From positions 13,021 to 77,020 of the forward strand of contig CAJVZH010000007.1 in the NCBI GenBank assembly GCA_913020715.1: a stretch of DNA of 64,000 nucleotides, read 5' to 3'. The notes beneath the pieces are model-generated. The model did not search any database. It was not told the origin of the DNA and saw only the letters and a program-made list of their open reading frames with translations. Of the stretch, positions 12,663 to 26,349 are shown one piece after another (the stretch's first letter is position 1; each line of letters starts with the position of its first letter). Source of the DNA: an uncultured Gammaproteobacteria bacterium (lineage in GTDB: Bacteria; Pseudomonadota; Gammaproteobacteria; PS1; Pseudothioglobaceae). The translations under genes were made by a program, and so were the position numbers.

Positions 12663-12858
12663 TTTGCCCAATATACGTGGCTTAATAAGCTGGCGTCCGC
12701 CAATTTTGAGATGCCACTCAGGGCTTATGAAAGATGCAAATTACACCAACTTAGGCTGCCTCAATGGAATATCTCAAGAGCCAGCCTGGGGCTGCAAATG
12801 GACACGCTAGAAACAACCCATTTAACTCATGAATTCTTCATAGGTCAGTAACCAGTAT

Positions 12859-13623
12859 CTAGTATTTACCACTCAATAACTCACCTGCTTCAGGAACATA
12901 AGTGCTCAAATTAAGTGATTTTAACATCTGCCAAGTAGTACAAATAGAGGAGCTAGTAACTGGTATTTGTAATATTTTTTCAACTTTGGCCACTGCGGCT
13001 AATGAAGGCATTTGCACACAAGCTGAGAGCACCAACACATCAATACCTTCCGTATCGACTTTTTTGAAGTGCTCAAGCAGGTTGTTTGGATCTTGCGCGG
13101 CAACCTCCAGATTATCTGGGATTTCAAGTGCAAGATAATCTTTTACTTTTATACCCTCTGATTCAATGTAGTCAACAACAAGTCTTGCCAAAGAGTCCAT
13201 ATAGGGACAAACAAAAGAAATGGTTTTGGCGCCCAGAGCGTGCAAGCCATCAATCAATGCGCCGGCACTGGTTACCACGGGCGCTGCCGCGTTATTTTCT
13301 TCAGTTATTTTTTGTAAGTTGAGCTGCGCATTTCGGTGGTAACCATTGCCCATTGACATAATGGCTACTAAGCAGGCATAGCCAAGAACGTCCATTCTGG
13401 CGTCAGACAGTTCGAGTGCGCAGCGGCCAGAATCAGCATCCATTGCTTGAAGCTCTTCTTTGGTTACATTTTTCATTCGCATACGACTTGAATGGAATGA
13501 AAAGCGCTCGGGTGAAATCCCTTCTCGGGCTCTAAGCATTGCTGGTATTTCGGTTTCCATTGTGACATTTGAGCTGGGCACAATTTGTCCAACTCTAATT
13601 AAGTTATTTTTCATTTTGCTCAT
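12859..13623 (-). CDS. maiA: Maleate cis-trans isomerase (Asp/Glu racemase fold)
   Basis: GQIVPSSNVTMETE, YACLVA and LSACVQMPS catalytic Cys pair, typical of MaiA/NicE. Confidence 0.85.
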   Translation of the reverse strand: MSKMKNNLIRVGQIVPSSNVTMETEIPAMLRAREGISPERFSFHSSRMRMKNVTKEELQAMDADSGRCALELSDARMDVLGYACLVAIMSMGNGYHRNAQLNLQKITEENNAAAPVVTSAGALIDGLHALGAKTISFVCPYMDSLARLVVDYIESEGIKVKDYLALEIPDNLEVAAQDPNNLLEHFKKVDTEGIDVLVLSACVQMPSLAAVAKVEKILQIPVTSSSICTTWQMLKSLNLSTYVPEAGELLSGKY

Positions 13624-14531
13624 CCTTTTATAACGGGGTTACGAATAGTGCCAATGCCCTCTATACCTGCCTCAATAATATCACCTGGCCACATCCATTC
13701 TTGTGGATCGCGCCCTGCGCCCACCCCTGATGGCGTTCCGGTGGCAATAATATCCCCTGGCTCTAAACGCATGCCGCTGCTAATATCTGCAATTAATTCA
13801 GGTATTTTAAAAAGCATAAATTTGGTATTAGAGTTTTGTTTCATCTCTCCGTTTTTCTTTAACCAAAGGTTAAGGTTGTGAGGATCTTTGACTTCATCAG
13901 CGGTGACGATGATCGGCCCCATTGGTGCGAAGCTATCCTGCCCTTTGGAAACAATCCATTGGCCCGCCCGCCTACAATCTCTTGCAGAAACATCGTTAAT
14001 AATTGTGTAACCAAAGACATGATTGAGTGCGTCTTCTTTAGGAATTGAGGATCCACCACTGCCGATAATGACTGCTAACTCAACCTCCCAATCGAGCTGT
14101 TGAGTAAGTGAGTTTCGATGCACAATCGGGCTATTCCAAGAAGTTACAGTTGTGGGTGGCTTTGTAAAAATAACCGGTTCTTGTGGAAGTTCTGCTGAGG
14201 TGTCGAGACTTCTGGCAGACTCAGCAACATGCTCAGTGTAGTTTAATCCAATGCCAAAAATATTCTTTTGCGGCCTGGGAATTGGCGCCAAAAAACGGGT
14301 ATCTGAAACCGCTGAAGTTGTACCTGCTGGCCAGTTGCCTTGATATTGCTTAATCAATTCCCCAAGTCGGGTTTTCGCCGAAATACCAGCATCGATAAAT
14401 GATTGCATGGTTGCCGGCAAATACTCGCCGGCTATTTCAGCCAAAAGATTAACATCGATAACTATATTGTCATCAATATATCCTAATCTGGCTTGTTCGT
14501 CTATTTTGATTCTGTATGTTGCGAGCTTCAT
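13620..14531 (-). CDS. Fumarylacetoacetate-hydrolase-family protein
   Basis: GIGLNYTEH, LDWEVEL, NDVSARD, SKGQDSF and PGDIIATGTPSGVG. Confidence 0.92.
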   Translation of the reverse strand: MKLATYRIKIDEQARLGYIDDNIVIDVNLLAEIAGEYLPATMQSFIDAGISAKTRLGELIKQYQGNWPAGTTSAVSDTRFLAPIPRPQKNIFGIGLNYTEHVAESARSLDTSAELPQEPVIFTKPPTTVTSWNSPIVHRNSLTQQLDWEVELAVIIGSGGSSIPKEDALNHVFGYTIINDVSARDCRRAGQWIVSKGQDSFAPMGPIIVTADEVKDPHNLNLWLKKNGEMKQNSNTKFMLFKIPELIADISSGMRLEPGDIIATGTPSGVGAGRDPQEWMWPGDIIEAGIEGIGTIRNPVIKG

Positions 14532-14555
14532 AGTTGGGTCCTATAAATATAAAAA

Positions 14556-15674
14556 TTAAATAACCTGTTGGTGTCCATTATTTTGTTGATAAGGTTCTTC
14601 GAGATAAAATCCAAGTTTATCCATCACGGGAAAATCATTAAAAGAAAATAAACAGGCGTCATCAGAAGATGAGCTGTTTTTGTGCTCGTGCCAATGCCAA
14701 GAAGGCACACAGAATATGTCTTTTTCTTTCCAGTGAAACTCCTTGCCGTTGATAATCGATGTGCCAGAACCTTTAGCCACATTGTAGATAACATTACCTG
14801 TATGTCGGTGCGCTTTAGTGTGTTCTGCGGGACGCAGCATTTGCATGGAGGCGCTCATGGTTTGCATAATATAGCCTCCGTCCTTGGGGTTACTGTATCG
14901 CATTATAATGCCGTCAAAAGGGCATCCATCAGAGGCCTTAGCGTAATTTTGAAGTCCTTCATATGTTTCATCCCAACCAAACCGCATCAGAGGTGAGTAG
15001 GGTTTAGCCCATTTGTCATTAGCCGGGATTAAACCAGGAGAGCCGTAAATTAATGGAGAGTCATTAGTGGTGTATTTTGGCGTTTGAAAAATATCTTTAT
15101 GCACTGCGTAGTAATTAGCCTCCAATGCATTGGTAAGTGGGATGTCTAAGCCATCCTGCCAAATGGACGTTTTTCCTTCGTCATTTACACCGTGATCATG
15201 CCATGTGCCATTGGGTGTAATCACAAAATCGCGTGCACCAAACTCAATCTTATGGCCGTCAACTACTGTATATGCGCCAGCGCCTTCCATAATAAATCTC
15301 AGAGCGGAAGCGGCGTGTTTGTGCGCTGAGGTTTTTTCTCCGGGTTTCATAATTTGAATGCCACTAAACAGCCAACCACAAGCGGCACTCACCTCAGTGC
15401 GTTTTGGATTTTTTAGGTAGACCACCCTCCTGCCTGCTTTTTCGGGTGAAACCAGCTCAGAAGCCTTAACGACATAGGGACGAATGTCTTCAAATTTCCA
15501 TAAAACAGGTATAGAGTGTGCTGTGGGCTCCCAGGGCTCGATGTCATTGGCAACAGTCCATAGTGCACCGGTGTTGAATTGATTCAACTCTTTATAGTAA
15601 GATTTAAGTTGATCATCATCAGTGACAATGGCGCGGCCAATTTGGTTGTCTCTACCATCCGTTCTATTGCTCAT
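14556..15674 (-). CDS. Bicupin ring-cleavage dioxygenase, gentisate 1,2-dioxygenase family
   Basis: SGIQIMKPGE-x3-AHKH-x3-ALRFIMEG and TPNGTWHDH (HxH...H Fe ligands); second cupin AHRH...WHWHEH. Confidence 0.88.
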   Translation of the reverse strand: MSNRTDGRDNQIGRAIVTDDDQLKSYYKELNQFNTGALWTVANDIEPWEPTAHSIPVLWKFEDIRPYVVKASELVSPEKAGRRVVYLKNPKRTEVSAACGWLFSGIQIMKPGEKTSAHKHAASALRFIMEGAGAYTVVDGHKIEFGARDFVITPNGTWHDHGVNDEGKTSIWQDGLDIPLTNALEANYYAVHKDIFQTPKYTTNDSPLIYGSPGLIPANDKWAKPYSPLMRFGWDETYEGLQNYAKASDGCPFDGIIMRYSNPKDGGYIMQTMSASMQMLRPAEHTKAHRHTGNVIYNVAKGSGTSIINGKEFHWKEKDIFCVPSWHWHEHKNSSSSDDACLFSFNDFPVMDKLGFYLEEPYQQNNGHQQVI

Positions 15675-15710
15675 AAATATGCCTCGTTGGTTCCAAAGGT
15701 GGTTTCTTCT

Positions 15711-17324
15711 TTATTTTTTTAGCGAAAATCGTTGGATTTTCCCTGTCGCCGTTTTAGGAATGGATTCACAAAACACTATGGATCGAGGGTACTTGTAAGG
15801 CGCAATCAACTCTTTAACATGATTTTGCAGAATCTCAATAGTTTTGTTATTTTTCGCTTGATCCGATACAAGCACAATATGCGCTTGGACAATGCTACCT
15901 CGATCTTCATCATCGACACCAATAACAGCGCATTCATCTACGAACGGATGTTGCAGAAGTGCCGCCTCAACATCGGGAGCAGCAATGTTGTACCCCGATG
16001 AAATAATCATGTCATCATTGCGTGCAACAAAATGAAATGCGCCTGATTTGTCCATGGTAAAGCAATCGCCAGTCATATTCCAGCCATTTTTTACATAAGT
16101 TGTTTGGCGCTTATCTGCCAAATATCTACAACCCGTTGGACCCTTAATCGCAAGTTTTCCAATTGTGTTCGGAGGCGCTTCATTTCCGTCTTCATCAAGA
16201 ATAATTGCTTTATAGCCTGCGACTGGTTTTCCAGTACAAGAGGCTTGGTGATTGTCGGTTCGATTTGAAATAAAAATATGGAGCAATTCAGTTGCTCCAA
16301 TGCCATCAACCAGTGGTTTGCCAGTGGTATCAATCCAATCCTGATAAATGGAGGCGGGCAAAGTTTCGCCAGCAGAAACGGCTACACGCAACGTGGATAG
16401 GTCAGCACCTTCTTTTATTGCTGATAACATCACTTTATAGGCAGTAGGAGCAGTAAAACAAATGGTGGCTTTATATTTCTCAATCATGTCTATCAGCCCC
16501 TCAGGGGATGCTTGTTCGATTAGTGTTGCAGTCGCGCCAAAACGCAGTGGAAAGACCGCCAGACCCCCTAAACCAAAAGTGAAGGCAAGTGGTGGTGAAC
16601 CAATAAAAACATCTTTAGGGGTAACTTGTAGCACTTCTTTAGCATAAGTGTCGGCGATAGTCAGTAGGTCGCGATGAAAATGCATTGTTGCCTTGGGTTC
16701 ACCAGTAGTGCCTGAAGTAAAGCCTAAAAGGGCAACATCGTCACTACTAGTTTGGACAGCATTAAAATTAACGGACTTCTCCAACGCTAACTCGTCCAGC
16801 TCGGCCTCGTGGTTTGAAGTGCCATCAAAGCCCACTATTTGTTTAAGAAACGGGCTGTCGTTCGCACAATCATTTAATTCGTCCAACAGTCGGGTATCGC
16901 AAAGGGCAAAGTGAATTTGTGCCTTGTTTACAATTTTGCTTAATTCTCCAGATCGGAGCATGGGCATTGTATTAACAACAACCGCACCGACTTTTGTCGC
17001 TGCTAACCAGCAAGCGACCATTGCGGGGTTATTTGCGGATCGAATTAATACACGATTCCCCGACTCAATCTTATACTCCTCCAACAGAACGTTTGCTAGT
17101 CGATTGCTCCAGTCTGTCAACTCCTTATAAGTTCTTCTTCGGCCATTTCCTATTAAGGCAGTGTGGTCTCCAAAGCCGCTCTCAACCATCGTATCGGTTA
17201 GTTCATGGGCAATATTTAGTTGATCAGGGTAGTTGAAATTTTCTAATAATAGCTCTGGCCATTCAGAGGCTGGCGGTAAATTATCCCTCGAAAAAGTGTC
17301 GGTGTGTTGCGTCGGATTTAGCAT
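15711..17324 (-). CDS. Anthranilate (2-aminobenzoate)-CoA ligase, benzoate-CoA ligase family
   Basis: FTSGTTGEPK, SPPLAFTFGLGG, DGIGATELLHIF and TATGKIQRF. N-terminus (HTDTFSRDNLPP...YPDQLN) resembles AbmG-type ligases. Confidence 0.85.
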   Translation of the reverse strand: MLNPTQHTDTFSRDNLPPASEWPELLLENFNYPDQLNIAHELTDTMVESGFGDHTALIGNGRRRTYKELTDWSNRLANVLLEEYKIESGNRVLIRSANNPAMVACWLAATKVGAVVVNTMPMLRSGELSKIVNKAQIHFALCDTRLLDELNDCANDSPFLKQIVGFDGTSNHEAELDELALEKSVNFNAVQTSSDDVALLGFTSGTTGEPKATMHFHRDLLTIADTYAKEVLQVTPKDVFIGSPPLAFTFGLGGLAVFPLRFGATATLIEQASPEGLIDMIEKYKATICFTAPTAYKVMLSAIKEGADLSTLRVAVSAGETLPASIYQDWIDTTGKPLVDGIGATELLHIFISNRTDNHQASCTGKPVAGYKAIILDEDGNEAPPNTIGKLAIKGPTGCRYLADKRQTTYVKNGWNMTGDCFTMDKSGAFHFVARNDDMIISSGYNIAAPDVEAALLQHPFVDECAVIGVDDEDRGSIVQAHIVLVSDQAKNNKTIEILQNHVKELIAPYKYPRSIVFCESIPKTATGKIQRFSLKK

Positions 17325-17325
17325 C

Positions 17326-17805
17326 TTACTCTCCTTTCACCACTTTTAATTTTTCTTGTTTATCTGATTTGTTTTTCAGCAGTTGTTGAGAAATTCCCTC
17401 TAAAGACTCACTTAAGTAAATCGTCTCATTCTCGGGCAAGTGCTCTAGTAACTCGTTAATCCATTCTTTGTGAGCATTTGCTTGACGAGAAAATTCAAGT
17501 CGTCCTTTTTCGCTCAGGGCAACTTTAAGAATTCGTCGATCACCTATAACCGAACTTCTATCAACTAAGCCTTCAGAGCATAGGCGGTCTACAATGCCGG
17601 TTACATTGCCATTTGAAACTCTCAGTGCTCCAGAAAGTTGACTCATTTTTAAGCCCTCTGGATTTTGACTAAGTGCGGCCATCACATCAAAGCGAGGCAG
17701 GGTTGTGTTAAAGTTTGTGGCAAAGCGCTCTCGCATCTCGGCCTCAATTAAACGGGATGTTTTTAGTAAACGCAACCACAGACGTATAGGGTTTTTTTTA
17801 TCCAT
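17326..17805 (-). CDS. MarR-family transcriptional regulator of the abm-type locus
   Basis: IRLWLRLLK, TLPRFDVMAAL, VSNGNVTGIVDRL and DRR wing. Confidence 0.92.
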   Translation of the reverse strand: MDKKNPIRLWLRLLKTSRLIEAEMRERFATNFNTTLPRFDVMAALSQNPEGLKMSQLSGALRVSNGNVTGIVDRLCSEGLVDRSSVIGDRRILKVALSEKGRLEFSRQANAHKEWINELLEHLPENETIYLSESLEGISQQLLKNKSDKQEKLKVVKGE

Positions 17806-17847
17806 AACAAGTATCCTTTTGATAAGTTTTTTTAATTTTACTAATAG

Positions 17848-20145
17848 TTAGGCCCTTAAAATCACATCCGTTTCTTTTTTAGATACGGCTCGAGCTTGTT
17901 TACTGCCTTCGAGATAGGGCAATGGCGCTTGTAGGCAGGCGTCTCCAATAGAAATTCCTTCATTAATAACCCAATAAGGATTAAGTAGTTGTGCCCTTCC
18001 AATACAAACCAGGTCCGCTCTACCTGCTAAAAGAATAGAGTTTGCATGATCAGCTTTATAAATGTTGCCTACAGCCATTGTCGGCACATGAGCCTCGTTT
18101 CTGATCATGTCTGAGAATGGAGTCTGATACATTCGACCATAAACGGGTTTACATTCATTGGAAGTTTCGCCAGATGAAACATTAATAATATCGGCGCCTG
18201 CTTTTTTGAACATTTTAGCCACTTGAAGTCCGTCTTTTGGTAAGAGGCCGGCTTCGCCCAGCCAATCATGAGCAGAGATTCGGACCGATATCGGCATGTT
18301 TTTGGTTAGAGCATTGCGTATTGCCTGAAAAACTGCCAAGGGGTAGCGCATACGATTTTCAAGACTTGCGCCATAGCGGTCTTTCCTTTGGTTGGAAATC
18401 GGGGAAATAAAAGAAGAAAGCAAATAACCATGGCCAGCTTGAAGTTCAATCATATCAAAACCAGCCGATTCTGCCATCAGCGCAGCCTTAACAAACCCCT
18501 GGCAGACTTCATCCATCTCACTCTCGCTAATTTCTTGCGGTATTGCGTTGTCACTCGACCAAGTAATTGCTGATGCTGACACCAAAGGCCAATTGCCGGA
18601 TTCTAACGGTAAGTTTGAATTTTCCCAACCAACTTGACTTGATCCGCGTCGACCAGCATGGCCTATTTGACAGCAAACTTTTGCATAAGTTTGTTGGTGT
18701 ATAAAATCCACTATCCTGCCCCATTCTTTTTCGTGATTTGGCTGATAAAGTCCGGCACAGTTTGGGGTAATACGGCCAGATTCACAAACAGCGACCATCT
18801 CAGTGCATATCAAGCCAGCACCGCCTTTGGCTCGTTCAGTATAATGAGTAAAATGCCAATCATTAACACAGCCGTTTTGGGCTTTAAAGGTAGCTATAGC
18901 AGGGAATACAATACGGTTTATTAAGGTTAAGTTGCCCAAAGTAAAGGGCGTAAACATAGGGGATCGAGTTGGTTGATTTGAGTCGACAGCCGATTGTTTT
19001 TGAAACCAGTTTTCAGCACTATTTAGCCAAAGTGGGTCGCGTAAACGCAGGTTTTCATGACTAATGCGTTGCGACCTAGTAAGTAGCGAATAACTAAATT
19101 GAATTGGCTCAAAATCAATATAGCGCTCTATATTTTCAAACCATTCAAGACTGTTTCTTGCTGCCGATTGCAATCTTAGCACCTCCACCCTTCTTTCTTC
19201 TTGGTAGCGTTTAAATGCGAGCCCCATTGAGGGTTCTGAATGTAGGTAGTCTGCCAGCGCGATAGCGCTATCAAATGCTAGGCGAGTGCCGGACCCTATG
19301 GAGAAGTGAGCAGTTGCTGCGGAGTCTCCAATAAGAACAACATTTTTGTAATACCATTTTTCACATACAATTCTTGGGAAGTTCATCCATACAGCCGAGC
19401 CCCTCAAGTGTTCTGCGTTTGACTCAAGCGCATGGCTGCCCAGGTGTTTTTTGAAGATTTCTTCACAGACCTTAACTGATTCTTCTTTTGACATGCTTTC
19501 AAAACCAGTAGCCTCCCATGTCTCCTGAGAGCACTCAACAATAAAAGTAGCGGTATTGTTGTCGAACTGATAAACATGGCCCCAAAACCATCCATGTTCA
19601 GTTTGCTCAAAAATAAAAGTAAAGGCGCCGTCAAATTCTTGCTTTGTGCCCAGCCAAATAAATTTGCAAAGCCTAGTGTCAATATTTGGCTTAAATCTGT
19701 CGTTGTATTCACCCCTTGGTTGTGAGTTGATGCCATCAGTAGCAACAACCAGATCGTATTGGTGACGGTAATCTTCAGCCGAGGCGAAGGTTTTCTCAAA
19801 TTGAAGGACAACGCCAAGCTCTCGTGCACGTTGTTGGAGTATTATTAGCAATTTTTTTCTCCCAATCCCCGCAAAACCGTGGCCACTTGAAACGATTCTA
19901 TTGCCTTTAATGGTCACGGCAAGATCGTCCCAATAAGAGAAGTTATCTCGAATTTGGTTTGCGCTTATTGAATCATTTTTTTGAAGATTTTCTAAGGCGT
20001 CATCCGAAAGTACGACGCCCCAGCCAAAAGTGTCATTTGCCTTGTTTCTTTCTATGACAGTTACCTCGTGCAAGGGATTTCTGAGCTTCATAGAAATGGC
20101 AAAATAGAGACCAGCAGGGCCGCCTCCAAGACACACAATACGCAT
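17848..20145 (-). CDS. abmA: Bifunctional anthraniloyl/salicylyl-CoA 5-monooxygenase with OYE-like oxidoreductase domain (AbmA/SdgC family)
   Basis: N-terminal GGGPAGLY, TFGWGVV, GDSAATAHFSIGSGT and YSLLTRSQRISHENLRLRD; C-terminal old-yellow-enzyme TIM barrel (GHGYLLSSFISP, SLENRMR). Confidence 0.88.
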   Translation of the reverse strand: MRIVCLGGGPAGLYFAISMKLRNPLHEVTVIERNKANDTFGWGVVLSDDALENLQKNDSISANQIRDNFSYWDDLAVTIKGNRIVSSGHGFAGIGRKKLLIILQQRARELGVVLQFEKTFASAEDYRHQYDLVVATDGINSQPRGEYNDRFKPNIDTRLCKFIWLGTKQEFDGAFTFIFEQTEHGWFWGHVYQFDNNTATFIVECSQETWEATGFESMSKEESVKVCEEIFKKHLGSHALESNAEHLRGSAVWMNFPRIVCEKWYYKNVVLIGDSAATAHFSIGSGTRLAFDSAIALADYLHSEPSMGLAFKRYQEERRVEVLRLQSAARNSLEWFENIERYIDFEPIQFSYSLLTRSQRISHENLRLRDPLWLNSAENWFQKQSAVDSNQPTRSPMFTPFTLGNLTLINRIVFPAIATFKAQNGCVNDWHFTHYTERAKGGAGLICTEMVAVCESGRITPNCAGLYQPNHEKEWGRIVDFIHQQTYAKVCCQIGHAGRRGSSQVGWENSNLPLESGNWPLVSASAITWSSDNAIPQEISESEMDEVCQGFVKAALMAESAGFDMIELQAGHGYLLSSFISPISNQRKDRYGASLENRMRYPLAVFQAIRNALTKNMPISVRISAHDWLGEAGLLPKDGLQVAKMFKKAGADIINVSSGETSNECKPVYGRMYQTPFSDMIRNEAHVPTMAVGNIYKADHANSILLAGRADLVCIGRAQLLNPYWVINEGISIGDACLQAPLPYLEGSKQARAVSKKETDVILRA

Positions 20146-20199
20146 AATTTCACACTATTTTTTAAATTCTAATAAAACAATTATACATAAATGACAAAT

Positions 20200-20219
20200 A
20201 TATTTTAAGTATAAAATAT
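20200..20219. promoter_or_regulatory. Palindromic operator candidate ATATTTTA-AGTA-TAAAATAT in the divergent promoter region
   Basis: Perfect 8-bp inverted repeat with a 4-nt spacer between abmA and the thioesterase; the same motif recurs at 34138-34157. Confidence 0.6.
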
Positions 20220-20318
20220 TAATTATAAAGGCCGGATCAACATGTGTATAATCCATTATAAGTTGCACATTGTTGGCTTAAGATAGGCACTTATTTATAT
20301 TTTTGGAATTAAGTTATT

Positions 20319-20726
20319 GTGGCATTCTCTGTTAATCAAAAAGTCCTTTTTAGGCACTGCGATCCTGCAGGAATCGTCTTTTATCCCAGGTATTATGAGA
20401 TGATGAACGATTGTGTGGAGGAGTTTTTTGATAAAACGCTTGGCTTTCCATTTAATGAACTACACGAGATTGGTGGTGTTCCGACGGCCAAGATCGAAAC
20501 CAAGTTTACCGCGCCGAGTCGGCAAGGCGATATATTGGAAATAGTGCTAAGATGCCTTAGGCTTGGGAATAGCAGCTTGAGCATACGAATAACTGCACGT
20601 TGCGGGGAAGAATTGCGATTTCAATCTGACTCAACGTTGGTGTTTATTGATAGAAGTGGCAAGCCTCAATCTTGGCATGCAAAAGTGGCACAGCTATTGG
20701 CGAAGTGTGTAAAGGAAGATTGTTAG
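20319..20726 (+). CDS. 4-hydroxybenzoyl-CoA-type (hotdog-fold) thioesterase
   Basis: FRHCDPAGIVFYPRYYEM with catalytic Asp; FTAPSRQGD. Confidence 0.9.
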   Translation: MAFSVNQKVLFRHCDPAGIVFYPRYYEMMNDCVEEFFDKTLGFPFNELHEIGGVPTAKIETKFTAPSRQGDILEIVLRCLRLGNSSLSIRITARCGEELRFQSDSTLVFIDRSGKPQSWHAKVAQLLAKCVKEDC

Positions 20727-20806
20727 GGTCTTTTGTTGAGCATCTACGCAAAAGTTAAGCGCGTGATTATTGCGCATTTTTTCATACTTTATTAAGGAGT
20801 TTGGAC

Positions 20807-21085
20807 ATGGTTTCTTCGATTGTGCTAATGAAAATTGAGAAAAACAAGGTGGGTGAGGTTGCTGAAAAGTTAACTGATATTCAGGGGGTCAGTGAAGTGT
20901 TTTCGGTCGCTGGGCGTTGCGATTTGGTGTGCATGGTTCGAGTGGCTGATAATGAGCAATTAGCTGAAGCTGTTACTGAAAGAGTTCTGAAGGTTGAAGG
21001 GGTGCTTGAAACAGAAACTATGATTGCGTTTCGTGTTTTTTCTAAGCACGATTTAGAGGGTATGTTTTCGGTAGGCCTTAACTAG
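20807..21085 (+). CDS. Stand-alone Lrp/AsnC ligand-binding-domain protein (no HTH)
   Basis: 92 aa after SD AAGGAG; EVFSVAGRCDLVCMVRV...VLKVEGVLETETMIAF matches the Lrp C-terminal RAM domain. Confidence 0.8.
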   Translation: MVSSIVLMKIEKNKVGEVAEKLTDIQGVSEVFSVAGRCDLVCMVRVADNEQLAEAVTERVLKVEGVLETETMIAFRVFSKHDLEGMFSVGLN

Positions 21086-21111
21086 TATTGGTATATTGAA
21101 AGAGTTAAATT

Positions 21112-22134
21112 ATGGATATTAATCTTCCTATCTTTAAGGCAGCGGCCGTTCAAGATTCTCCTGTATTTTTGAATGTTGATGCCACGATCGACAAAGTGTG
21201 TGCAATTATTGCAAAAGCAAGCGCTAACGGCGCCGACTTAGTGGCTTTTCCAGAAGTTTTTGTTTCGGGATACCCTTATTGGAATTGGATTATGAGCCCT
21301 ATTGATGGAGGCAAATGGTACGAAAAACTTTACCGTAATTCCATTGACGTACCCGGCCCCGCTGTAGAAAGAATATATCAAGCAGCCAAAGAGCATAATG
21401 TTGTTGTAGTTATCGGTGTTAACGAACGAGGCTCTCGTAGTTTGGGTGTTATTTACAATACAGTCTTGGTGATAAGTGAGCAAGGCGAACTTATTGGCAA
21501 GCATAGAAAATTAGTGCCCACTTGGGCTGAAAAGCTCACTTGGACAGGTGGAGATGGCTCCTCCTTAAATGTACATGATACAAAGGTAGGTCCTTTGGGC
21601 GTATTGGCTTGTGGTGAAAATACAAATACATTGGCTCGTTTTGCTCTCTTGGCGCAAGGTGAGTTGGTGCATGTTTCAAATTATATTGCCTTGCCGACTG
21701 CACCAAAAGACTACGATATGGCTAGAGCAATTGAAATTAGGACGGCCGCACATGCTTTTGAAGGGAAGGTTTTCAATATTACATCCTGTTCCACTATTTC
21801 TGAATACATGATCGAGCAGATGGAGCAAGATTGCCCAAATGCCCGCCAACTATTAACTCGAAGTCGAGGCTCTTGGACTGGCGTTATTGGGCCAGACGGT
21901 CAAGTCATTGGCGAGCCGCTGATTGACAAAGAGGGCATTGTTTACGCGGACATTAATCTTTCAAAATGCATACAACCTAAACAAATGCATGACATTGTTG
22001 GGCATTATAATCGTTTTGATATATTCGACTTTAAAGTTAATAAGTCCCCCCAGGAGGCGGTCTCTTTCACAACAAAAAACATCAGTGAAAAAAGTGGTGA
22101 AAACGAAGATACTGAAGATGATAGTAGCCTCTAA
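21112..22134 (+). CDS. Nitrilase / carbon-nitrogen hydrolase family protein
   Basis: Catalytic triad FPE, HRKLVPTWAEK and LACGENTN. Confidence 0.92.
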   Translation: MDINLPIFKAAAVQDSPVFLNVDATIDKVCAIIAKASANGADLVAFPEVFVSGYPYWNWIMSPIDGGKWYEKLYRNSIDVPGPAVERIYQAAKEHNVVVVIGVNERGSRSLGVIYNTVLVISEQGELIGKHRKLVPTWAEKLTWTGGDGSSLNVHDTKVGPLGVLACGENTNTLARFALLAQGELVHVSNYIALPTAPKDYDMARAIEIRTAAHAFEGKVFNITSCSTISEYMIEQMEQDCPNARQLLTRSRGSWTGVIGPDGQVIGEPLIDKEGIVYADINLSKCIQPKQMHDIVGHYNRFDIFDFKVNKSPQEAVSFTTKNISEKSGENEDTEDDSSL

Positions 22135-22167
22135 ACCTAAGACAATGTATTAACCAAGGAATCAGTT

Positions 22168-23364
22168 ATGTCTGCCGAATACATTTGCAAAAAAAACCAT
22201 TTTTATCTACCAGATGACTTGATTTATCTCGATGGAAATTCACTTGGCCCGATGCCTCTTAAGGCTTTGGAGTACATGCCAAGTGTAATGCAAAATCAGT
22301 GGGGCGAAAAGCTTATTGGCGGCTGGAATGATGCCGGCTGGTATGACCAGCCCATAAGGGTTGGAGATCGCATCGCTCGGTTAGTTGGCGCGGACACAGG
22401 CTACATTGTAACGGGTGAAACGCTTTCGATAAAGGTCTACCAAGCGCTGGCTGCAGCCTTAGATATTAATAGTGACAGGCGAGTTATTCTATCTGATAAC
22501 GGCAACTTCCCTACTGATTTATATATTGCTGAAGGACTTATTAAAACCCTTGATAAGGGCCATCAGCTCGCATGCCCTAATCCTGAAGAGGTTGAGGATA
22601 GTATTGATGACTCGGTTGCAGTATTGATGCTTACTGAAGTCGATTATAAAACCTCCAGAAGGCATGACATGAAGCGCTTGACTGAAAAAGCTAGAGAGCA
22701 TGGGGTGATAACAATTTGGGACCTGGCCCACTCAGCAGGAGCTATACCGATTGATTTACAAGGTTGTGACATTGATTTTGCTATAGGTTGTACCTATAAG
22801 TACCTAAATGGTGGCCCCGGTTCTCCCGCTTTTATATATGTTGCGAAGCGGCATTCCAATATAGCCACGCCTGCGCTTTCGGGGTGGATGGGCCATCAAG
22901 CGCCTTTTTCCTTTGAACAAAGCTATCGGGCGCATGAGGGAACAAGTCGCATGCGTGTGGGCACTCCGCCTGTGCTTGCTCTATCCGTGCTTGAAGCCGC
23001 TTTAGATGTGTTTGATGGTGTTGATATGCACACCCTCTATCAGCGATCAAGAGTACTGTCGGAATTGTTTATCAAGGAGGTTATGGGCTCCTGCCCAAGT
23101 CTAATCTTAGCCAGTCCAGAAAAATCTGAATTGCGGGGCTCTCATGTTTCGTTCTATTTCGAGCATGCATTTTCTGCCATTCAAGCTTTGATTGATTTGG
23201 GCGTGGTAGGTGACTTTAGGGCTCCAAATGTGATGAGGTTTGGCATAACGCCTCTATATTTAGAAGAGGCAGACATCTCCCTTGCTGCGCAAAAAATTGC
23301 AAGTGTTGTTAATCAGGGTTTATGGAAAAAACAAATTTATCAAAAAAAAGGGGCGGTAACGTGA
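22168..23364 (+). CDS. kynU: Kynureninase
   Basis: [30 protein letters not shown] (PLP Lys), LSGWMGH and GDFRAP. Confidence 0.95.
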
Positions 23365-24197
23365 GTGAGTACTACAATCCAAAGGCAGATGGCGCACAAA
23401 TGTCTTTTGACGGGCGAATGTCTTACGGTGATTATCTAAATCTTGAGTACATCTTAAATGCACAAAAACCGCTTTCTGGCGCGCATGACGAAATGTTGTT
23501 TATTATTCAGCATCAGACTTCAGAGCTATGGATGAAGCTATGTGTTCACGAGCTTCTTTCTGCTCGTTTAGCTCTGCAAAACGACAACTTGCCGGAATCA
23601 TTTAAAATGCTCACTCGTGTAGCTCGAATAATGGAGCAACTTAATAACGCCTGGGATGTGCTTCGAACAATGACACCAAGCGAGTACACACAGTTTAGAG
23701 ACGACTTGGGTCAAAGTTCAGGATTCCAATCGCACCAATATAGACAAATTGAATTTATCTTGGGAAATAGAAATCGGTCGCTATTAAAGCCGCATGAACA
23801 CCAACCGAGAATACATGAGTTGCTACTTGAGGAATTAGACACGCCCAGCTTGTATGATGAAGTGATATTCTTGCTTAGGCGTCAAGGCTTGGAGATTGAA
23901 GATTGCGCCCTAAAAAGAAATTCTGATCAGCCTTATGAAAGTAATGCAAGCGTATTAAATGCCTGGAGACAGGTATATTTAGACCCGGAAAAGTATTGGT
24001 CTTGTTATGAACTGGGTGAAAAATGTGTTGATGTAGAGGATTATTTTCGGCGATGGCGCTTTAATCATTTAACAACCGTTCAGCGTATTATAGGTTTTAA
24101 ACGTGGTACAGGGGGCACCAGTGGGGTGCACTATTTAAAACGCATGCTTGATGTTGAATTATTCCCAGAGCTTTGGGATGTAAGAACTGAGTTGTAG
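23361..24197 (+). CDS. kynA: Tryptophan 2,3-dioxygenase
   Basis: [31 protein letters not shown] and [17 protein letters not shown] start overlaps the kynU TGA. Confidence 0.96.
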
Positions 24198-24300
24198 GAT
24201 TACTAAGCAAGTTCAAGATATTATTGAAATACTCATAAATGCTTGTACAATGAAATGCGCATAACCACCTCAAAATAGGCGGTGGTGACACGCGTCTTGC

Positions 24301-25122
24301 TTACATGCGGCTAGCAAACAAAAGCTTGCACAGGGGGCTCTCAGCATTGCGAAGTCCATCAATCACATTAAAATGGTGTTTATTTTTATCGATATAAACC
24401 TTATGTGAGATGTCAAAACCTAGCCACATATCCTTAAGAAGTTGGCTTTGACGCAAAAACTCAGGGCGTTCATTTTCGCCCACCCAGCAAACATGCTCAA
24501 TTCCTTTTCGTGGGGATAGTAAAACAGGGCTATGGCTTTGAGCGGTTTCAAAATCAATATTTAATTCTTTGTTCATTTTAGTATGCATGAGGGGCCTAAG
24601 ATCGTAGACACCAGAAATTGACACACACCTCTTAATTTTTTGCTTTGTTGAGATGGATAGATGGGAGTCTGTGCATATTAATCGACTAACAAGAAAACCA
24701 CCCGCAGAGTGGCCAGCAAGATATATCGGCCCATCAATTTCACCAGCAACAACATCAAGAGCTATAGTCGTCTCATCTATTATTTGCGGAATATTTGTGC
24801 CGGGACACAGAGTGTAAGAAATGATAGCCACTGCATATCCACTCTCTAAGCCGCCTTTTGCAAGGTGAGACCAATAACTTTTATCAAAATCAAGCCAGTA
24901 ACCACCATGCACAAAAAACATCAACCCCTTTGGTTTGTCTTTAGGTAGAAAAAGATCGTATTTATTTCTTGTTTTATCGCCATACGGGACGTTAAGCATG
25001 GCTTTGTTGTTTATAGCAACCTCTTCTCTAAATGCCCTGGATTCGTTTTCCCAGCTAGTGATATAGTCGGTTGCCCCCTCTATATAGATAGCATTTGCGA
25101 ATTCATCATCCCAGTTTTTCAA
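24301..25122 (-). CDS. Alpha/beta-hydrolase, probable kynurenine formamidase (arylformamidase)
   Basis: FVHGGYW, GHSAGG nucleophile elbow, SGVYDL and KHHFNVI; adjacent to kynA/kynU. TTG start. Confidence 0.75.
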   Translation of the reverse strand: MKNWDDEFANAIYIEGATDYITSWENESRAFREEVAINNKAMLNVPYGDKTRNKYDLFLPKDKPKGLMFFVHGGYWLDFDKSYWSHLAKGGLESGYAVAIISYTLCPGTNIPQIIDETTIALDVVAGEIDGPIYLAGHSAGGFLVSRLICTDSHLSISTKQKIKRCVSISGVYDLRPLMHTKMNKELNIDFETAQSHSPVLLSPRKGIEHVCWVGENERPEFLRQSQLLKDMWLGFDISHKVYIDKNKHHFNVIDGLRNAESPLCKLLFASRM

Positions 25123-25440
25123 ATAACTTCCATTTTTGTTTGAATGTTAGTGTTGGATCGGCTAATCTATATTATATACAGTAAGCTCCAAGCAGATGAT
25201 CACAAGGTTGTTCCGTATTGTGCGTCTCTGGATTGCCCAGTTAAGCACTCAAAAAGGAGAAACACATGCAACACCAAATATCTAAGCTTAGCGATAAAGG
25301 CTGGACAAACCTCACAGCTAGTAGGGCGATCTCATGATAATCGTTGAAGAGCTTAGGCTCTGCCCAAACTGCAAACAAGGCTCTATTAGAGATGCGATAG
25401 TCTCATATAACTCATCAAGCTTTGACGGTGAAGACATAAA

Positions 25441-26349
25441 TTAGGCCAGCGCCCTCAGCTGCTCAATCAGTTGTTTCCTAGTATTGGTTGGAAAATTAGA
25501 CAAAGCTTGTTGTTCGCTATTTTTTGCAATTTGCAGTAGTTTGGCAACTTTTTTTCTTCCAGCTTCTGTTGCGCTTACAGTGTGCTCATCGTAGTCCAGC
25601 CAGCCTAGCGACTGTAAACTTTCAGCCGCCTCTCTTGCCTCACGCTGGCCACTTAAAATGCGAAAATGCAGACGTGACATATCGACCTGATCTTGATCAT
25701 ACAAGTTAGCCAATATGCGCCAACCTGTAACGCTAAGACCTGCCTCTTCCACAGCTAGGTACAGAACATCTGCAAGTTGCTTGCGAGCTGCCGATAAATG
25801 ATAAAGTAGTAAATCATCGACTGCACTACCCAAACTATCTAGGTCATCACTGACTTGTGGCGGCGGTGCTAGCGCTTCCGCAGTGGCATAACTGCCACCA
25901 GAGAATACCAGTCCACGTTTAGGGCTAGTTGTAAAAGATTGCACTTCAGCGACAATTATCGCATGATCGCCTCCTTCATAAACCGCCCAAGCGCTACATT
26001 GGAATTGGCAAATTGCCCCCCTAAGCATATGACAACCCCCTAGACCAAATTCACTATCAATGCCAGAGAATTTGTCATTGCCCTGCTGGGAAAATTTGTT
26101 CGATAATTGAACCTGATCGGCGCTAAGTACATTGATGCAAAAATGCTTGGCTTCGATAAATGCCTTGGCGCCATGTGCATCGTGAGCCACTGACCAAAGC
26201 ACCAAAGCTGGCTCCAAAGATACTGAATTAAAGCTACTTGCAGTCATGCCAATAGGCTCGCCGTCAGCGTCACAAGTGGTAATGACTGTTACCCCGGTGG
26301 CGAATGTGGCTAGCGCATTTCTAAATTGATTTGTATCAAAATCTAACAT
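25441..26349 (-). CDS. hpaC: Flavin reductase (HpaC-like) fused to a C-terminal MarR-like domain
   Basis: FRNALATFATGVTVIT, GMTASSFNSVSLEP and GGDHAI, followed by about 140 aa of winged-helix-like sequence (LSVTGWRILANL). Confidence 0.8.
   Translation of the reverse strand: MLDFDTNQFRNALATFATGVTVITTCDADGEPIGMTASSFNSVSLEPALVLWSVAHDAHGAKAFIEAKHFCINVLSADQVQLSNKFSQQGNDKFSGIDSEFGLGGCHMLRGAICQFQCSAWAVYEGGDHAIIVAEVQSFTTSPKRGLVFSGGSYATAEALAPPPQVSDDLDSLGSAVDDLLLYHLSAARKQLADVLYLAVEEAGLSVTGWRILANLYDQDQVDMSRLHFRILSGQREAREAAESLQSLGWLDYDEHTVSATEAGRKKVAKLLQIAKNSEQQALSNFPTNTRKQLIEQLRALA

What the first reader, a model, noticed from the sequence alone, without database searches (positions are those of the whole stretch)
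17848..18920. Reductase (old-yellow-enzyme) domain of AbmA looks degenerate while the monooxygenase domain is intact
Seen: the C-terminal domain reads NRIVFPAIATF, ELQAGHGYL (Gln codon at 18439-18441) and IGRAQL. Established for the OYE/YqjM family: H-x-x-H-G-Y supplies two substrate-binding His and the proton-donor Tyr, and an N-terminal (S)PM motif and an AR-P motif contribute to FMN binding. As I recall them, AbmA homologs read SPMAQY, ELH(A/C)AHGY and LARPHL. Inference: loss of the first His and of PM/RP would disable the reduction step. The hydroxylated intermediate would then rearomatise to 5-hydroxyanthraniloyl-CoA, which is the product the adjacent ring-cleavage genes would need.
Basis: partly seen in the sequence, partly recalled or inferred. 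Interest (0 to 1): 0.72.

Follow-up and report, generated by a model that had tools for sequence, protein, structure and literature searches.

The report
AbmA-type hydroxylase with re-tuned reductase domain
A two-domain enzyme that normally hydroxylates and then de-aromatises anthraniloyl-CoA has here changed key reductase-site residues, as at least three other bacterial lineages did independently, each time when the follow-up genes were swapped for a ring-cleavage module.

Summary
Gene 17848-20145(-) encodes a 765-aa AbmA-family protein. Its OYE domain reads NRIVFPAIATF, ELQAGHGYL (CAA, 18439-18441) and IGRAQL. About 200 canonical homologues read SPMAQY, ELH(A/C)AHGY and (A/G)RPHL.

All 80 canonical genome loci keep SPM and HxxH. 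70 of them have SDR, enoyl-CoA hydratase or acyl-CoA dehydrogenase neighbours, and none has a cupin.

H569Q arose four separate times: in this Ca. Thioglobus clade, in Burkholderiaceae, in Streptomyces/Nocardiopsis (SdgC-like), and in a metagenomic clade. A single origin is rejected (p-AU 4e-66). Wherever the context could be read, a nitrilase-family gene and a GDO-type bicupin sit beside the gene; FAH and a maleate-isomerase-like gene are also there in three of the four lineages, and the fourth lineage's loci end inside the cupin gene.

"Degenerate" is too strong. Residues that align with OYE FMN contacts are kept. Within the Streptomyces clade the domain is as constrained as in canonical enzymes. 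dN/dS in this clade is about 0.07 or lower.

Best reading: a hydroxylase-only, SdgC-like derivative of AbmA that releases aromatic 5-hydroxyanthraniloyl-CoA into a thioesterase/ring-cleavage route fed by the adjacent tryptophan-to-anthranilate genes. Activity is untested.

The parts
17848..20145 (-). Complete gene for the 765-aa AbmA-family two-domain flavoprotein (P0001)
   Evidence: ORF and translation. NCBIfam NF006101 scores 1148.6 bits against a cut-off of 1078. Pfam PF00724 covers residues 397-726.
18991..20145 (-). N-terminal FAD monooxygenase domain (residues 1-385), conserved
   Evidence: 74% mean identity to 118 canonical homologues. Only 5 of 217 near-invariant columns are changed. 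It matches VioD-type structures. It nests inside the canonical marine AbmA clade.
17911..18957 (-). C-terminal OYE-type (Oxidored_FMN) domain (residues 397-745), fast-evolved on the stem branch but still constrained
   Evidence: 60% mean identity to canonical homologues, with 30 of 178 near-invariant columns changed. The stem branch is 0.38 against 0.15 for the N-domain. dN is 0.206 with saturated dS against L007.
18883..18918 (-). NRIVFPAIATFK loop. Canonical enzymes read NR[IV]VVSPMAQYK. Changes: V414F, S415P, P416A, M417I, Q419T, Y420F
   Evidence: It aligns with the SPMC-x-Y loop of YqjM-class OYE structures.
18646..18648 (-). R500 in GHAGRR. Canonical enzymes have GHAGRK. The K-to-R change recurs in 3 of the 4 Q-type lineages
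18421..18450 (-). IELQAGHGYL. H569Q (CAA at 18439-18441) and A571G are changed. H572 and the proton-donor Y574 are retained
   Evidence: H569 is 25/25 and 30/30 conserved in the canonical sets and is Q in all four cupin-linked lineages.
17974..18003 (-). IGRAQLLNPY. Canonical enzymes read [LV][AG]RPHL. R717 is kept; P718A and H719Q are changed
   Evidence: The same RAQ occurs in the Streptomyces clade.
17326..17805 (-). MarR-family regulator, inherited from the canonical abm cluster
   Evidence: Pfam. 38-63% identical to the MarR genes of canonical clusters.
15711..17324 (-). Aryl-CoA ligase (probable anthranilate-CoA ligase)
   Evidence: Pfam and NCBIfam benzoate-CoA ligase family. 65-71% identical to the ligases of the closest, mostly marine, canonical abm clusters.
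14556..15674 (-). GDO-family bicupin dioxygenase of the GDOsp (PDB 3BU7) subtype
   Evidence: TIGR02272 scores 297 bits, below its cut-off of 442. The 3BU7 match scores 597 bits and the R. pomeroyi gene is 67% identical.
13620..14531 (-). FAH-family hydrolase (predicted acylpyruvate hydrolase)
   Evidence: Pfam PF01557. It is conserved in the module in Streptomyces, Burkholderiaceae and roseobacters.
12859..13623 (-). Asp/Glu-racemase-superfamily protein, probable maleate cis-trans isomerase
   Evidence: Pfam Amdase. The Burkholderia SFA1 orthologue is annotated maiA.
20319..20726 (+). 4HBT-fold thioesterase (predicted 5-hydroxyanthraniloyl-CoA thioesterase)
   Evidence: Pfam 4HBT. It is 58% identical to the thioesterase of the canonical Sediminimonas cluster and is fused to the ligase in S. 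venezuelae.
21112..22134 (+). Nitrilase-superfamily C-N hydrolase (predicted amide or nitrile hydrolysis after ring cleavage)
   Evidence: Pfam CN_hydrolase. It is 65% identical to the S. venezuelae orthologue. One sits beside a GDOsp-type cupin in 12 of 13 contexts read; the C. taiwanensis locus lists none.
22168..24197 (+). Kynureninase (22168-23364) and tryptophan 2,3-dioxygenase (23322-24197), which supply anthranilate
   Evidence: TIGR01814 is above its cut-off, and Pfam Trp_dioxygenase hits.
24301..25122 (-). Alpha/beta-hydrolase (probable arylformamidase)
   Evidence: NCBIfam. An Abhydrolase_3 gene also flanks the Streptomyces and Nocardiopsis clusters.

Best explanation
P0001 descends from a canonical marine 2-aminobenzoyl-CoA monooxygenase/reductase (AbmA). 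Its FAD monooxygenase domain still hydroxylates anthraniloyl-CoA at C5. Its OYE-type domain has been re-tuned at the enone-activating site (H569Q, A571G, K500R, M417I, then S415P, P416A, Y420F and P718A/H719Q). The predicted result is that the dienone intermediate is no longer hydrogenated and re-aromatises to 5-hydroxyanthraniloyl-CoA. The enzyme would then work like Streptomyces SdgC (an acyl-CoA 5-hydroxylase with an aromatic product) rather than like AbmA.

The 4HBT thioesterase would free 5-hydroxyanthranilate. The GDOsp-type bicupin would open the ring. FAH, the nitrilase-family enzyme and the maleate isomerase would carry the product to pyruvate, ammonia and fumarate. Anthranilate comes from the adjacent TDO, formamidase and kynureninase genes.

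The OYE domain is kept under selection, so it probably still binds flavin and has a structural or auxiliary role.

Shown here: the sequence changes, their parallel recurrence, the gene-context switch, and the purifying selection. Inferred: loss of hydrogenation, the identity of the product, and the order of the lower-pathway steps.
For: - **Motifs:** the changed motifs are present in the window and absent from about 200 canonical homologues.
- **No domain swap:** the window clade nests inside the canonical marine AbmA clade in both the N-domain tree and the C-domain tree. The C-domain stem is 2.5 times longer than the N-domain stem.
- **Four independent origins:** H569Q arose four times on a tree built without the convergent columns. 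A single Q clade is rejected, with a log-likelihood difference of 634 and p-AU 4e-66.
- **Parallel change is confined to the OYE domain:** 12 of 129 conserved C-domain columns changed in two or more lineages, against 0 of 82 N-domain columns.
- **Gene context follows the residue:**
  - 70 of 80 canonical loci have SDR, ECH or ACAD neighbours, and none has cupin, FAH, Mai or nitrilase.
  - Every Q-type locus read has the cupin next door: the window and L007-L010; S. venezuelae, S. gobiensis and Nocardiopsis; L096 and L101; R. solanacearum, Burkholderia SFA1 and C. taiwanensis; and G445. All but C. taiwanensis (no nitrilase listed) and L010 (contig too short) also show the nitrilase.
- **Independent genome sample:** in 401 sampled Pseudomonadota genomes the exact ELQAGHG[YF]L pattern hit only the window's own genome and G445. 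Both have the module.
- **No canonical lower pathway:** the window's genome lacks orthologues of those genes.
- **The proton-donor Tyr is also lost elsewhere:** it is H or Q in Streptomyces and F in R. solanacearum and G445.
- **Biochemical precedent:** the canonical enzyme forms 5-hydroxyanthraniloyl-CoA when NADH is limiting (PMC3534580).
- **Purifying selection:** the C/N divergence ratio is 1.12 in the Streptomyces Q clade and 1.21 in the canonical clade. In this clade dN is 0.21 with saturated dS.
Against: - No activity data exist for this protein or for any Q-type proteobacterial member.
- Gln can still hydrogen-bond a carbonyl, and H572 and Y574 are retained here, so residual ene-reductase activity is possible.
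- That the Streptomyces clade contains the characterised SdgC of strain WA46 rests on NCBI names and my recollection. The paper could not be read.
- The closest characterised relative of the cupin (GDOsp, 3BU7) is assayed on gentisate, not 5-hydroxyanthranilate.
- Four origins are few events, and the paired test is underpowered.
- Strong conservation of the altered domain means that simple inactivation does not fully explain it.
Confidence: 0.7

Rival explanations
1. The altered OYE domain has gained a new catalytic role rather than lost one. It could guide tautomerisation, or hydrolyse the 2-imino tautomer so that gentisyl-CoA and then gentisate become the ring-cleavage substrate. This would match the anthranilate to 5-hydroxyanthranilate to gentisate route that Cain proposed in 1968.
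For: Four lineages converged on the same residues (Q569; G571 and R500 in three of four), which is not what random knock-outs would give. The altered domain is as constrained as the canonical one. GDOsp, the nearest characterised cupin, turns over gentisate. The gentisate route for anthranilate has been described without any genes assigned (PMC4539516).
Against: There is no precedent for such chemistry in OYE domains. A nitrilase-family gene accompanies the cupin in 12 of 13 contexts read, which suggests nitrogen survives ring cleavage. Re-aromatisation needs no catalyst.
Confidence: 0.12
2. The reductase domain is still a working ene-reductase, with H569Q tolerated. The enzyme makes the canonical non-aromatic product, and the neighbouring cupin, FAH and isomerase genes serve another substrate.
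For: H572, Y574, Q493, R622 and R717 are retained. The full-length gene is under purifying selection. It scores above the NF006101 cut-off.
Against: The genome has no orthologues of the SDR, ECH or ACAD genes that would process that product. The hydroxylase, ligase, cupin, FAH and isomerase genes lie head to tail on one strand. The same residue changes recur exactly where the lower pathway was swapped. The proton-donor Tyr is lost in two sister Q lineages.
Confidence: 0.08
3. The domain is a neutrally decaying relic with no remaining function, which is 'degenerate' in the strict sense.
For: 17% of near-invariant OYE columns are changed against 2% in the N-domain. The SPM loop eroded further in the window lineage after it split from P0003. 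The close relative P0393 has R590H and R610H. A large Actinomycetota group has badly eroded, shortened C-domains.
Against: There are no stops, frameshifts or truncation. dN/dS is about 0.07 or lower. In the Streptomyces Q clade the C-domain is 82% conserved and the N-domain 84%. Residues aligned to FMN contacts are intact. The changes converge on specific residues.
Confidence: 0.05
4. The enzyme is hydroxylase-only, but its substrate is salicylyl-CoA, as for SdgC and CehH. The cluster would then be a salicylate-to-gentisate pathway that merely sits next to the kynurenine genes.
For: The NCBIfam name. The Streptomyces clade shares the signature and is named salicylyl-CoA 5-hydroxylase. The GDOsp-type cupin cleaves gentisate.
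Against: The N-domain differs from canonical AbmA at only 5 of 217 conserved columns. The ligase is 65-71% identical to those of the closest abm clusters, which often carry TDO and kynureninase. The window's kynU and TDO are co-oriented with the thioesterase and nitrilase genes. The nitrilase-family gene has no role in a gentisate route.
Confidence: 0.1

Closest known systems
2-Aminobenzoyl-CoA monooxygenase/reductase AbmA (EC 1.14.13.40; Azoarcus evansii type)
   Same: It shares the two-domain architecture (FAD monooxygenase plus OYE domain). It is 65-68% identical to marine homologues from abm-type clusters and nests inside that clade in both domain trees. It has the same MarR, CoA ligase and thioesterase partners, and the same link to TDO and kynureninase.
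   Different: The OYE substrate site is changed (H569Q, A571G, K500R, SPM to PAI, RPH to RAQ). There are no SDR, ECH, ACAD or RidA partners; a nitrilase, bicupin, FAH and maleate isomerase take their place. The predicted product is aromatic.
Salicylyl-CoA 5-hydroxylase SdgC (Streptomyces sp. WA46; EC 1.14.13.209) and the Streptomyces/Nocardiopsis clade so named by NCBI
   Same: It shares the Q-x-G-H-G and G-R-A-Q signatures and a proline in the SPM loop. The operon partners are the same: alpha/beta-hydrolase, ligase, 4HBT thioesterase, C-N hydrolase, bicupin, FAH and isomerase, with partner proteins 49-65% identical. From memory of Ishiyama et al. 2004, SdgC yields aromatic gentisyl-CoA.
   Different: It is only 42-44% identical and sits in a different part of the tree, so the shared residues are convergent. 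The window enzyme keeps Tyr574, which Streptomyces lost. The likely substrate is anthraniloyl-CoA rather than salicylyl-CoA. It is linked to kynurenine-pathway genes.
YqjM/XenA/TOYE-class old yellow enzymes (PDB 1Z41, 3L5L, 3HF3, 8PUN)
   Same: It has the PF00724 fold, with E-values of 1e-53 to 1e-79 against these structures. The Q-x-G-H-x-G-R, V-R-I-S, A-V-G and G-R motifs are conserved.
   Different: The first His of the substrate-binding pair is Gln. The S-P-M-C-x-Y loop reads P-A-I-A-T-F. The domain is fused to a monooxygenase.
GDOsp, gentisate 1,2-dioxygenase of Ruegeria (Silicibacter) pomeroyi (PDB 3BU7), and its four-gene module
   Same: The window's cupin is 67% identical. In R. pomeroyi the gene also sits in a C-N hydrolase, cupin, FAH and Asp/Glu-racemase row.
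   Different: In roseobacters the module sits beside an indolepyruvate-ferredoxin-oxidoreductase-type pair and a thioesterase, with no AbmA-like gene nearby. Only gentisate activity has been reported.

Membership tests
AbmA (2-aminobenzoyl-CoA monooxygenase/reductase) | Fused N-terminal FAD monooxygenase and C-terminal OYE domain, about 760-770 aa | tested here: met
   765 aa. NF006101 aligns over residues 1-759, and PF00724 over 397-726.
AbmA (2-aminobenzoyl-CoA monooxygenase/reductase) | Phylogenetic placement among AbmA genes from abm-type clusters | tested here: met
   It nests in the marine canonical clade with starred support in the N-domain, C-domain and full-length trees.
AbmA (2-aminobenzoyl-CoA monooxygenase/reductase) | OYE catalytic set H-x-x-H-G-Y with the SPM loop, needed for ring hydrogenation | tested here: not met
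   It reads Q569-A-G-H-G-Y and P-A-I, where about 200 canonical sequences have H and SPM.
AbmA (2-aminobenzoyl-CoA monooxygenase/reductase) | Clustered with beta-oxidation-type genes (SDR, enoyl-CoA hydratase, acyl-CoA dehydrogenase) that take the non-aromatic product | tested here: not met
   These genes are absent from the locus and have no orthologues in the genome. They are present at 70 of 80 canonical loci.
AbmA (2-aminobenzoyl-CoA monooxygenase/reductase) | [quoted passage not shown] | not testable with these tools
   This needs enzyme assays.
SdgC-type acyl-CoA 5-hydroxylase (aromatic product) | Gln in place of the first OYE His, with Q-x-G-H-G and R-A-Q | tested here: met
   ELQAGHGYL and GRAQL in the window match LELQYGHG[HQ]L and GRAQL in about 120 Streptomyces-clade proteins.
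SdgC-type acyl-CoA 5-hydroxylase (aromatic product) | Operon with CoA ligase, 4HBT thioesterase and a gentisate-type bicupin dioxygenase | tested here: met
   Window genes. The same set occurs in S. venezuelae, S. gobiensis and Nocardiopsis.
SdgC-type acyl-CoA 5-hydroxylase (aromatic product) | Common descent with the Streptomyces SdgC clade | tested here: not met
   A single Q-type clade is rejected (log-likelihood difference 634, p-AU 4e-66). Identity is 42-44%.
SdgC-type acyl-CoA 5-hydroxylase (aromatic product) | Substrate salicylyl-CoA and product gentisyl-CoA | not testable with these tools
   The context (kynU, TDO, an abm-type ligase, an AbmA-like N-domain) points to anthraniloyl-CoA instead.
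Old yellow enzyme family (PF00724) | TIM-barrel Oxidored_FMN domain with residues aligned to FMN contacts (Q493, R622, G716-R717) | tested here: met
   Pfam E-value 1e-60. The residues are conserved in alignment to PDB OYEs and across all lineages. FMN content itself was not tested.
Old yellow enzyme family (PF00724) | His/His or His/Asn pair that activates the enone, plus a Tyr proton donor | tested here: not met
   The first His is Gln. The second His and the Tyr are present.

The most novel reading that the evidence does not exclude
The H569Q, A571G, K500R and M417(I/T) set is a convergent molecular switch. It would turn a de-aromatising AbmA into an aromatic 5-hydroxylase while giving the conserved OYE domain a new role. 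It would also mark the so far gene-less 5-hydroxyanthranilate route of anthranilate and tryptophan catabolism. In that route a GDOsp-type bicupin would cleave 5-hydroxyanthranilate with the nitrogen retained, and FAH, a nitrilase-family hydrolase and maleate isomerase would finish the job. This would imply that the 'gentisate 1,2-dioxygenase' of PDB 3BU7 has a nitrogen-containing native substrate.
Probability: 0.3. Interest if true: 0.8.

Novelty: new variant of a known kind. Interest (0 to 1): 0.64.

Why it matters
Databases currently give one name to two functionally opposite enzymes. NCBI calls everything "bifunctional salicylyl-CoA 5-hydroxylase/oxidoreductase" and JGI calls everything "anthraniloyl-CoA monooxygenase".

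A single position (H or Q at 569), backed by three or four companion positions, appears to separate the ring-de-aromatising AbmA from the aromatic-product hydroxylases. It also predicts which lower pathway follows. That gives a cheap annotation rule and a clear mutagenesis experiment.

It is also a clean natural example of parallel evolution. At least four lineages made the same active-site edits when a pathway was rewired, and they kept the edited domain.

For marine biology, it shows that a streamlined 1.55-Mb Ca. Thioglobus-like genome carries a complete tryptophan-to-fumarate/pyruvate island. None of the 121 other species genomes searched in its family has this gene.

Tried and rejected
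- **Domain swap from a Streptomyces-like donor:** rejected, because both domain trees place the window clade in the same canonical marine clade.
- **Closer relatives for a clean dN/dS:** the metagenome scan found nothing above 52% identity. No other genome of the family has the gene. Cluster members at 96% identity are held only as proteins.
- **dN/dS against L007:** dS is saturated, so only an upper bound could be given.
- **Paired-contrast test of Q state against context:** underpowered, with 2 usable pairs.
- **Reading the primary papers:** those on SdgC (PMC368302), cehGHI (PMC10617420) and GDOsp (PMC2492823) are not held.
- **Full-text searches:** searches for a described anthranilate, maleate isomerase, nitrilase and gentisate pathway, and for remarks on an inactive SdgC reductase domain, found nothing relevant.
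- **Heavily eroded Actinomycetota group (P0127-like):** the one context read (L130) was uninformative.
- **Structure prediction:** not run, because the tool returns no coordinates and so could not place the changed residues.
Full report
**What is there.** The ORF at 17848-20145 on the minus strand encodes a 765-aa protein, P0001. It scores above the curated cut-off of NCBIfam NF006101, "bifunctional salicylyl-CoA 5-hydroxylase/oxidoreductase" (1148.6 against 1078 bits). It carries a C-terminal Oxidored_FMN (old yellow enzyme) domain at residues 397-726. Its N-terminal half matches VioD-type FAD monooxygenase structures.

- NRIVFPAIATFK at residues 410-421.
- IELQAGHGYL at residues 566-575.
- IGRAQLLNPY at residues 715-724.

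Gln569 is encoded by CAA at 18441-18439.

**Is it unusual?** Yes. Of the 120 best homologues (65-74% identical, mostly Rhodobacterales and other marine Alphaproteobacteria), 117 read NR[IV]VVSPMAQY[KR] and [IV]E[LM]HAAHGYL. Nearly all read [LVI][AG]RPHL. The only deviants are the query, its near-identical cluster representative, and its 74%-identical sister P0003, which reads NRIVFSPISTYK, LELQAGHGYL and IGRTHLLNPYW.

Eighty further loci from species genomes, 50-67% identical and almost all proteobacterial, all read SPM and HxxH and almost always RPH.

The divergence is specific to the OYE domain:
- P0001 differs from 118 canonical proteins at 5 of 217 near-invariant N-domain columns, and at 30 of 178 near-invariant OYE-domain columns.
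- Mean identity is 74% in the N-domain against 60% in the OYE domain. Canonical members show about 83% against 80%.

**Gene context.** In the window, the hydroxylase lies in a minus-strand run with MarR, an aryl-CoA ligase, a gentisate-family bicupin, an FAH-family hydrolase and a maleate-isomerase-like protein. A divergent plus-strand run carries a 4HBT thioesterase, a nitrilase-family hydrolase, kynureninase and tryptophan 2,3-dioxygenase. A convergent alpha/beta-hydrolase follows. P0003 sits in the same cluster, with an added ABC transporter.

Canonical homologues sit in a different arrangement: AbmA, SDR, MarR, enoyl-CoA hydratase, acyl-CoA dehydrogenase, (TDO), ligase, ABC transporter, thioesterase and RidA. 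Of the 80 canonical genome loci:
- 70 carry at least one of the pathway SDR, ECH or ACAD genes, and 65 carry at least two.
- None carries a homologue of the cupin, FAH, isomerase or nitrilase.
- Seven of the ten without any such neighbour are short contigs.

The window's own genome is 1.55 Mb and 94.7% complete. A 96%-identical cluster member is named Candidatus Thioglobus. The genome has no orthologue of the pathway SDR, ECH or ACAD; the best hits are 36, 32 and 35% identical, against 38-83% for the neighbours found at the 80 canonical loci. The gene is found in only this one of 122 species genomes of the family.

**The same edit elsewhere.** A search of 50%-identity representatives showed that OYE-domain erosion is common in this family. 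Three further groups share the Gln.

1. A large Streptomyces/Nocardiopsis clade that NCBI names salicylyl-CoA 5-hydroxylase.
   - It reads NRVVVPPTAL, LELQYGHG[HQ]L and VGRAQL.
   - Its operon is alpha/beta-hydrolase, ligase, 4HBT, hydroxylase, C-N hydrolase, bicupin, FAH, isomerase and PaaX.
   - These read SPT, LELQAGHG[YF]L and GHAGRR.
   - The full arrangement (R. solanacearum, SFA1, G445) is IOR-type oxidoreductase, 4HBT, hydroxylase, bicupin, FAH, nitrilase and isomerase. The C. taiwanensis locus lists only hydroxylase, cupin and FAH among transposases.
3. A metagenomic clade (L096, L101).
   - It reads VELQ[SA]HHGYL.
   - It has a ligase, thioesterase, C-N hydrolase and cupin nearby.

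**Independence of the four origins.** A full-length tree was built without the convergent columns. Each Q-type group sits next to a different HxxH sister:
- The window clade is inside the marine canonical clade (100*).
- The Burkholderiaceae group is beside Achromobacter (100*).
- L096/L101 are beside P0125 (97*).
- Streptomyces is beside P0143 (98*).

This requires four H-to-Q changes. Forcing all Q-type sequences into one clade costs 634 log-likelihood units (p-AU 4e-66).

Both single-domain trees place the window clade in the same canonical clade, so there was no domain swap.

Parallel change is confined to the OYE domain. Of 129 conserved C-domain columns, 12 changed in two or more Q lineages, three in three or more, and one (H569Q) in all four. 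Of 82 conserved N-domain columns, none changed in more than one lineage. The recurrent edits are H569Q (4 of 4), A571G (3 of 4, with H in the fourth), K500R (3 of 4) and M417I/T (3 of 4, variable within Streptomyces).

In an independent sample of 401 Pseudomonadota genomes, the exact ELQAGHG[YF]L pattern hit only the window's genome and G445. Both have the cupin module.

**Degenerate or re-tuned?** The domain is not decaying.
- It is full length in every lineage.
- It keeps the residues that align with FMN contacts of solved OYEs: Q493, H496, R499, R622, G693 and G716-R717.
- Here it also keeps the second His (H572) and the proton-donor Tyr (Y574).
- Within the Streptomyces Q clade, the OYE domain is 82.4% identical on average and the N-domain 84.2%, a divergence ratio of 1.12. 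The ratio in the canonical marine clade is 1.21.
- Between the window gene and L007, dN is 0.14 (N-domain) and 0.21 (C-domain) with saturated dS, so omega is about 0.07 or lower.

The excess change sits on the stem branch (0.38 against 0.15) and on the window's own branch (0.34 against 0.14). P0003 still has Ser-Pro and R-T-H. The order of events was therefore H569Q, A571G, K500R and M417I first, with S415P, P416A, Y420F and P718A/H719Q later in the window lineage.

The OYE structures aligned show other residues after the conserved Arg. The Arg itself is kept.

**Mechanism.** In YqjM-class OYEs (established knowledge, recalled from memory):
- The His pair binds and polarises the enone carbonyl.
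- FMN N5 delivers hydride to the beta carbon.
- The Tyr protonates the alpha carbon.
- The SPMC-x-Y loop lines the flavin and the substrate.

Changing the first His, and in other lineages also the Tyr (H or Q in Streptomyces, F in R. solanacearum and G445), should slow or stop hydrogenation of the dienone that the monooxygenase domain produces. The canonical enzyme is reported to release 5-hydroxyanthraniloyl-CoA when hydrogenation is starved of NADH (PMC3534580). An enzyme without hydrogenation should therefore give that aromatic product.

Several lines point to anthraniloyl-CoA as the substrate:
- The conserved N-domain.
- The ligase is 65-71% identical to the ligases of the closest abm clusters, which often carry TDO and kynureninase.
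- The adjacent kynurenine-pathway genes.

The thioesterase would free 5-hydroxyanthranilate for the bicupin.

**Lower pathway (outside the finding, but relevant to it).** The cupin is 67% identical to GDOsp of Ruegeria pomeroyi (PDB 3BU7), which has been assayed on gentisate. In R. pomeroyi, Sagittula, Aminobacter, Tistrella, R. solanacearum, Burkholderia SFA1, G445 and the actinomycetes, this cupin subtype travels with an FAH hydrolase and a C-N hydrolase, and usually an Asp/Glu-racemase-type isomerase. The C. taiwanensis locus shows only the FAH.

The near-constant C-N hydrolase suggests that nitrogen is still present after ring cleavage. One route would be C1-C2 cleavage of 5-hydroxyanthranilate to an amide-bearing acylpyruvate, followed by maleamate, maleate and fumarate. 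That is inference. A gentisate route, which Cain proposed in 1968 for Nocardia opaca (PMC4539516), is not excluded. From memory, the WA46 sdg cluster has nine ORFs and degrades salicylate. If it is this same operon, the pathway may accept both 2-hydroxy and 2-amino substrates.

**Verdict.** The inference that ring reduction is switched off is well supported by context and convergence, but it is biochemically untested. "Degenerate" should be replaced by "re-tuned and retained".

The enzyme works like SdgC but is not a member of the SdgC clade. It is an AbmA by descent that fails AbmA's catalytic and context criteria. I found no paper that describes this signature. They are not independent evidence.

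Noticed in passing
window 12779-25606 compared with L007 and L008: Mosaic divergence. The maleate isomerase and nitrilase genes are almost identical between the window and metagenomic locus L007 (dS 0.04-0.055; proteins 98% identical; kynU and TDO 96-97%). AbmA, FAH, cupin, ligase, MarR and thioesterase are 62-82% identical with saturated dS. L007 also carries an inserted ABC transporter, and its Mai end abuts sequence that lies at 25441-25606 in the window. This suggests allelic replacement or rearrangement inside the island.
   Followed up: partly
window 14556-15674; L133 (R. pomeroyi megaplasmid), L136, L138, L139: The structure deposited as 'gentisate 1,2-dioxygenase' GDOsp (PDB 3BU7) belongs to a widespread row of C-N hydrolase, bicupin, FAH and (usually) Asp/Glu racemase. 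The near-constant C-N hydrolase suggests the native substrate of this cupin subtype may contain nitrogen.
   Followed up: partly
L134 (R. solanacearum), L135 (Burkholderia SFA1), L142 (G445), L133, L136: In Burkholderiaceae and roseobacters, an indolepyruvate-ferredoxin-oxidoreductase-type alpha/beta pair takes the place of the AMP-forming CoA ligase next to the thioesterase and hydroxylase. The aryl-CoA could therefore be made from a 2-oxo acid, for example isatinate (2-aminophenylglyoxylate) from indole or isatin breakdown. A cyclase-family gene is nearby in SFA1 and Sagittula.
   Followed up: no
P0127-like proteins, L130: A large group of about 715-aa family members from uncultured Actinomycetota has a badly eroded OYE domain. 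The SPM loop is gone, the first His is N or D, and the C-terminal GR motif is lost. NCBI names them only 'FAD-dependent monooxygenase'. The one context read was uninformative.
   Followed up: partly
whole family (NF006101; JGI 'anthraniloyl-CoA monooxygenase'): Public annotation gives canonical (HxxH, beta-oxidation context) and Q-type (cupin context) enzymes the same name. The residue at position 569 would separate them.
   Followed up: yes
window 12859-25122, genome G000: The AbmA-type hydroxylase gene of the Trp/anthranilate island was found in only 1 of 122 species genomes of the family (0 of the 42 other genomes searched in the genus). The gene's nearest relatives are alphaproteobacterial. 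This fits horizontal acquisition by a streamlined 1.55-Mb genome.
   Followed up: partly
L094 7821-10019 (S. venezuelae): The CoA ligase and 4HBT thioesterase are fused into one 732-aa protein, joined by an Ala/Ser/Thr/Val-rich linker. They are separate genes in S. gobiensis and Nocardiopsis.
   Followed up: no
L096 4230-4835 and 9285-10865: The third Q-type lineage has a flavin reductase gene directly upstream of the hydroxylase. It also has a DUF4265 gene and a glutamate-synthase-domain FMN protein inside the cluster. Their roles are unknown.
   Followed up: no
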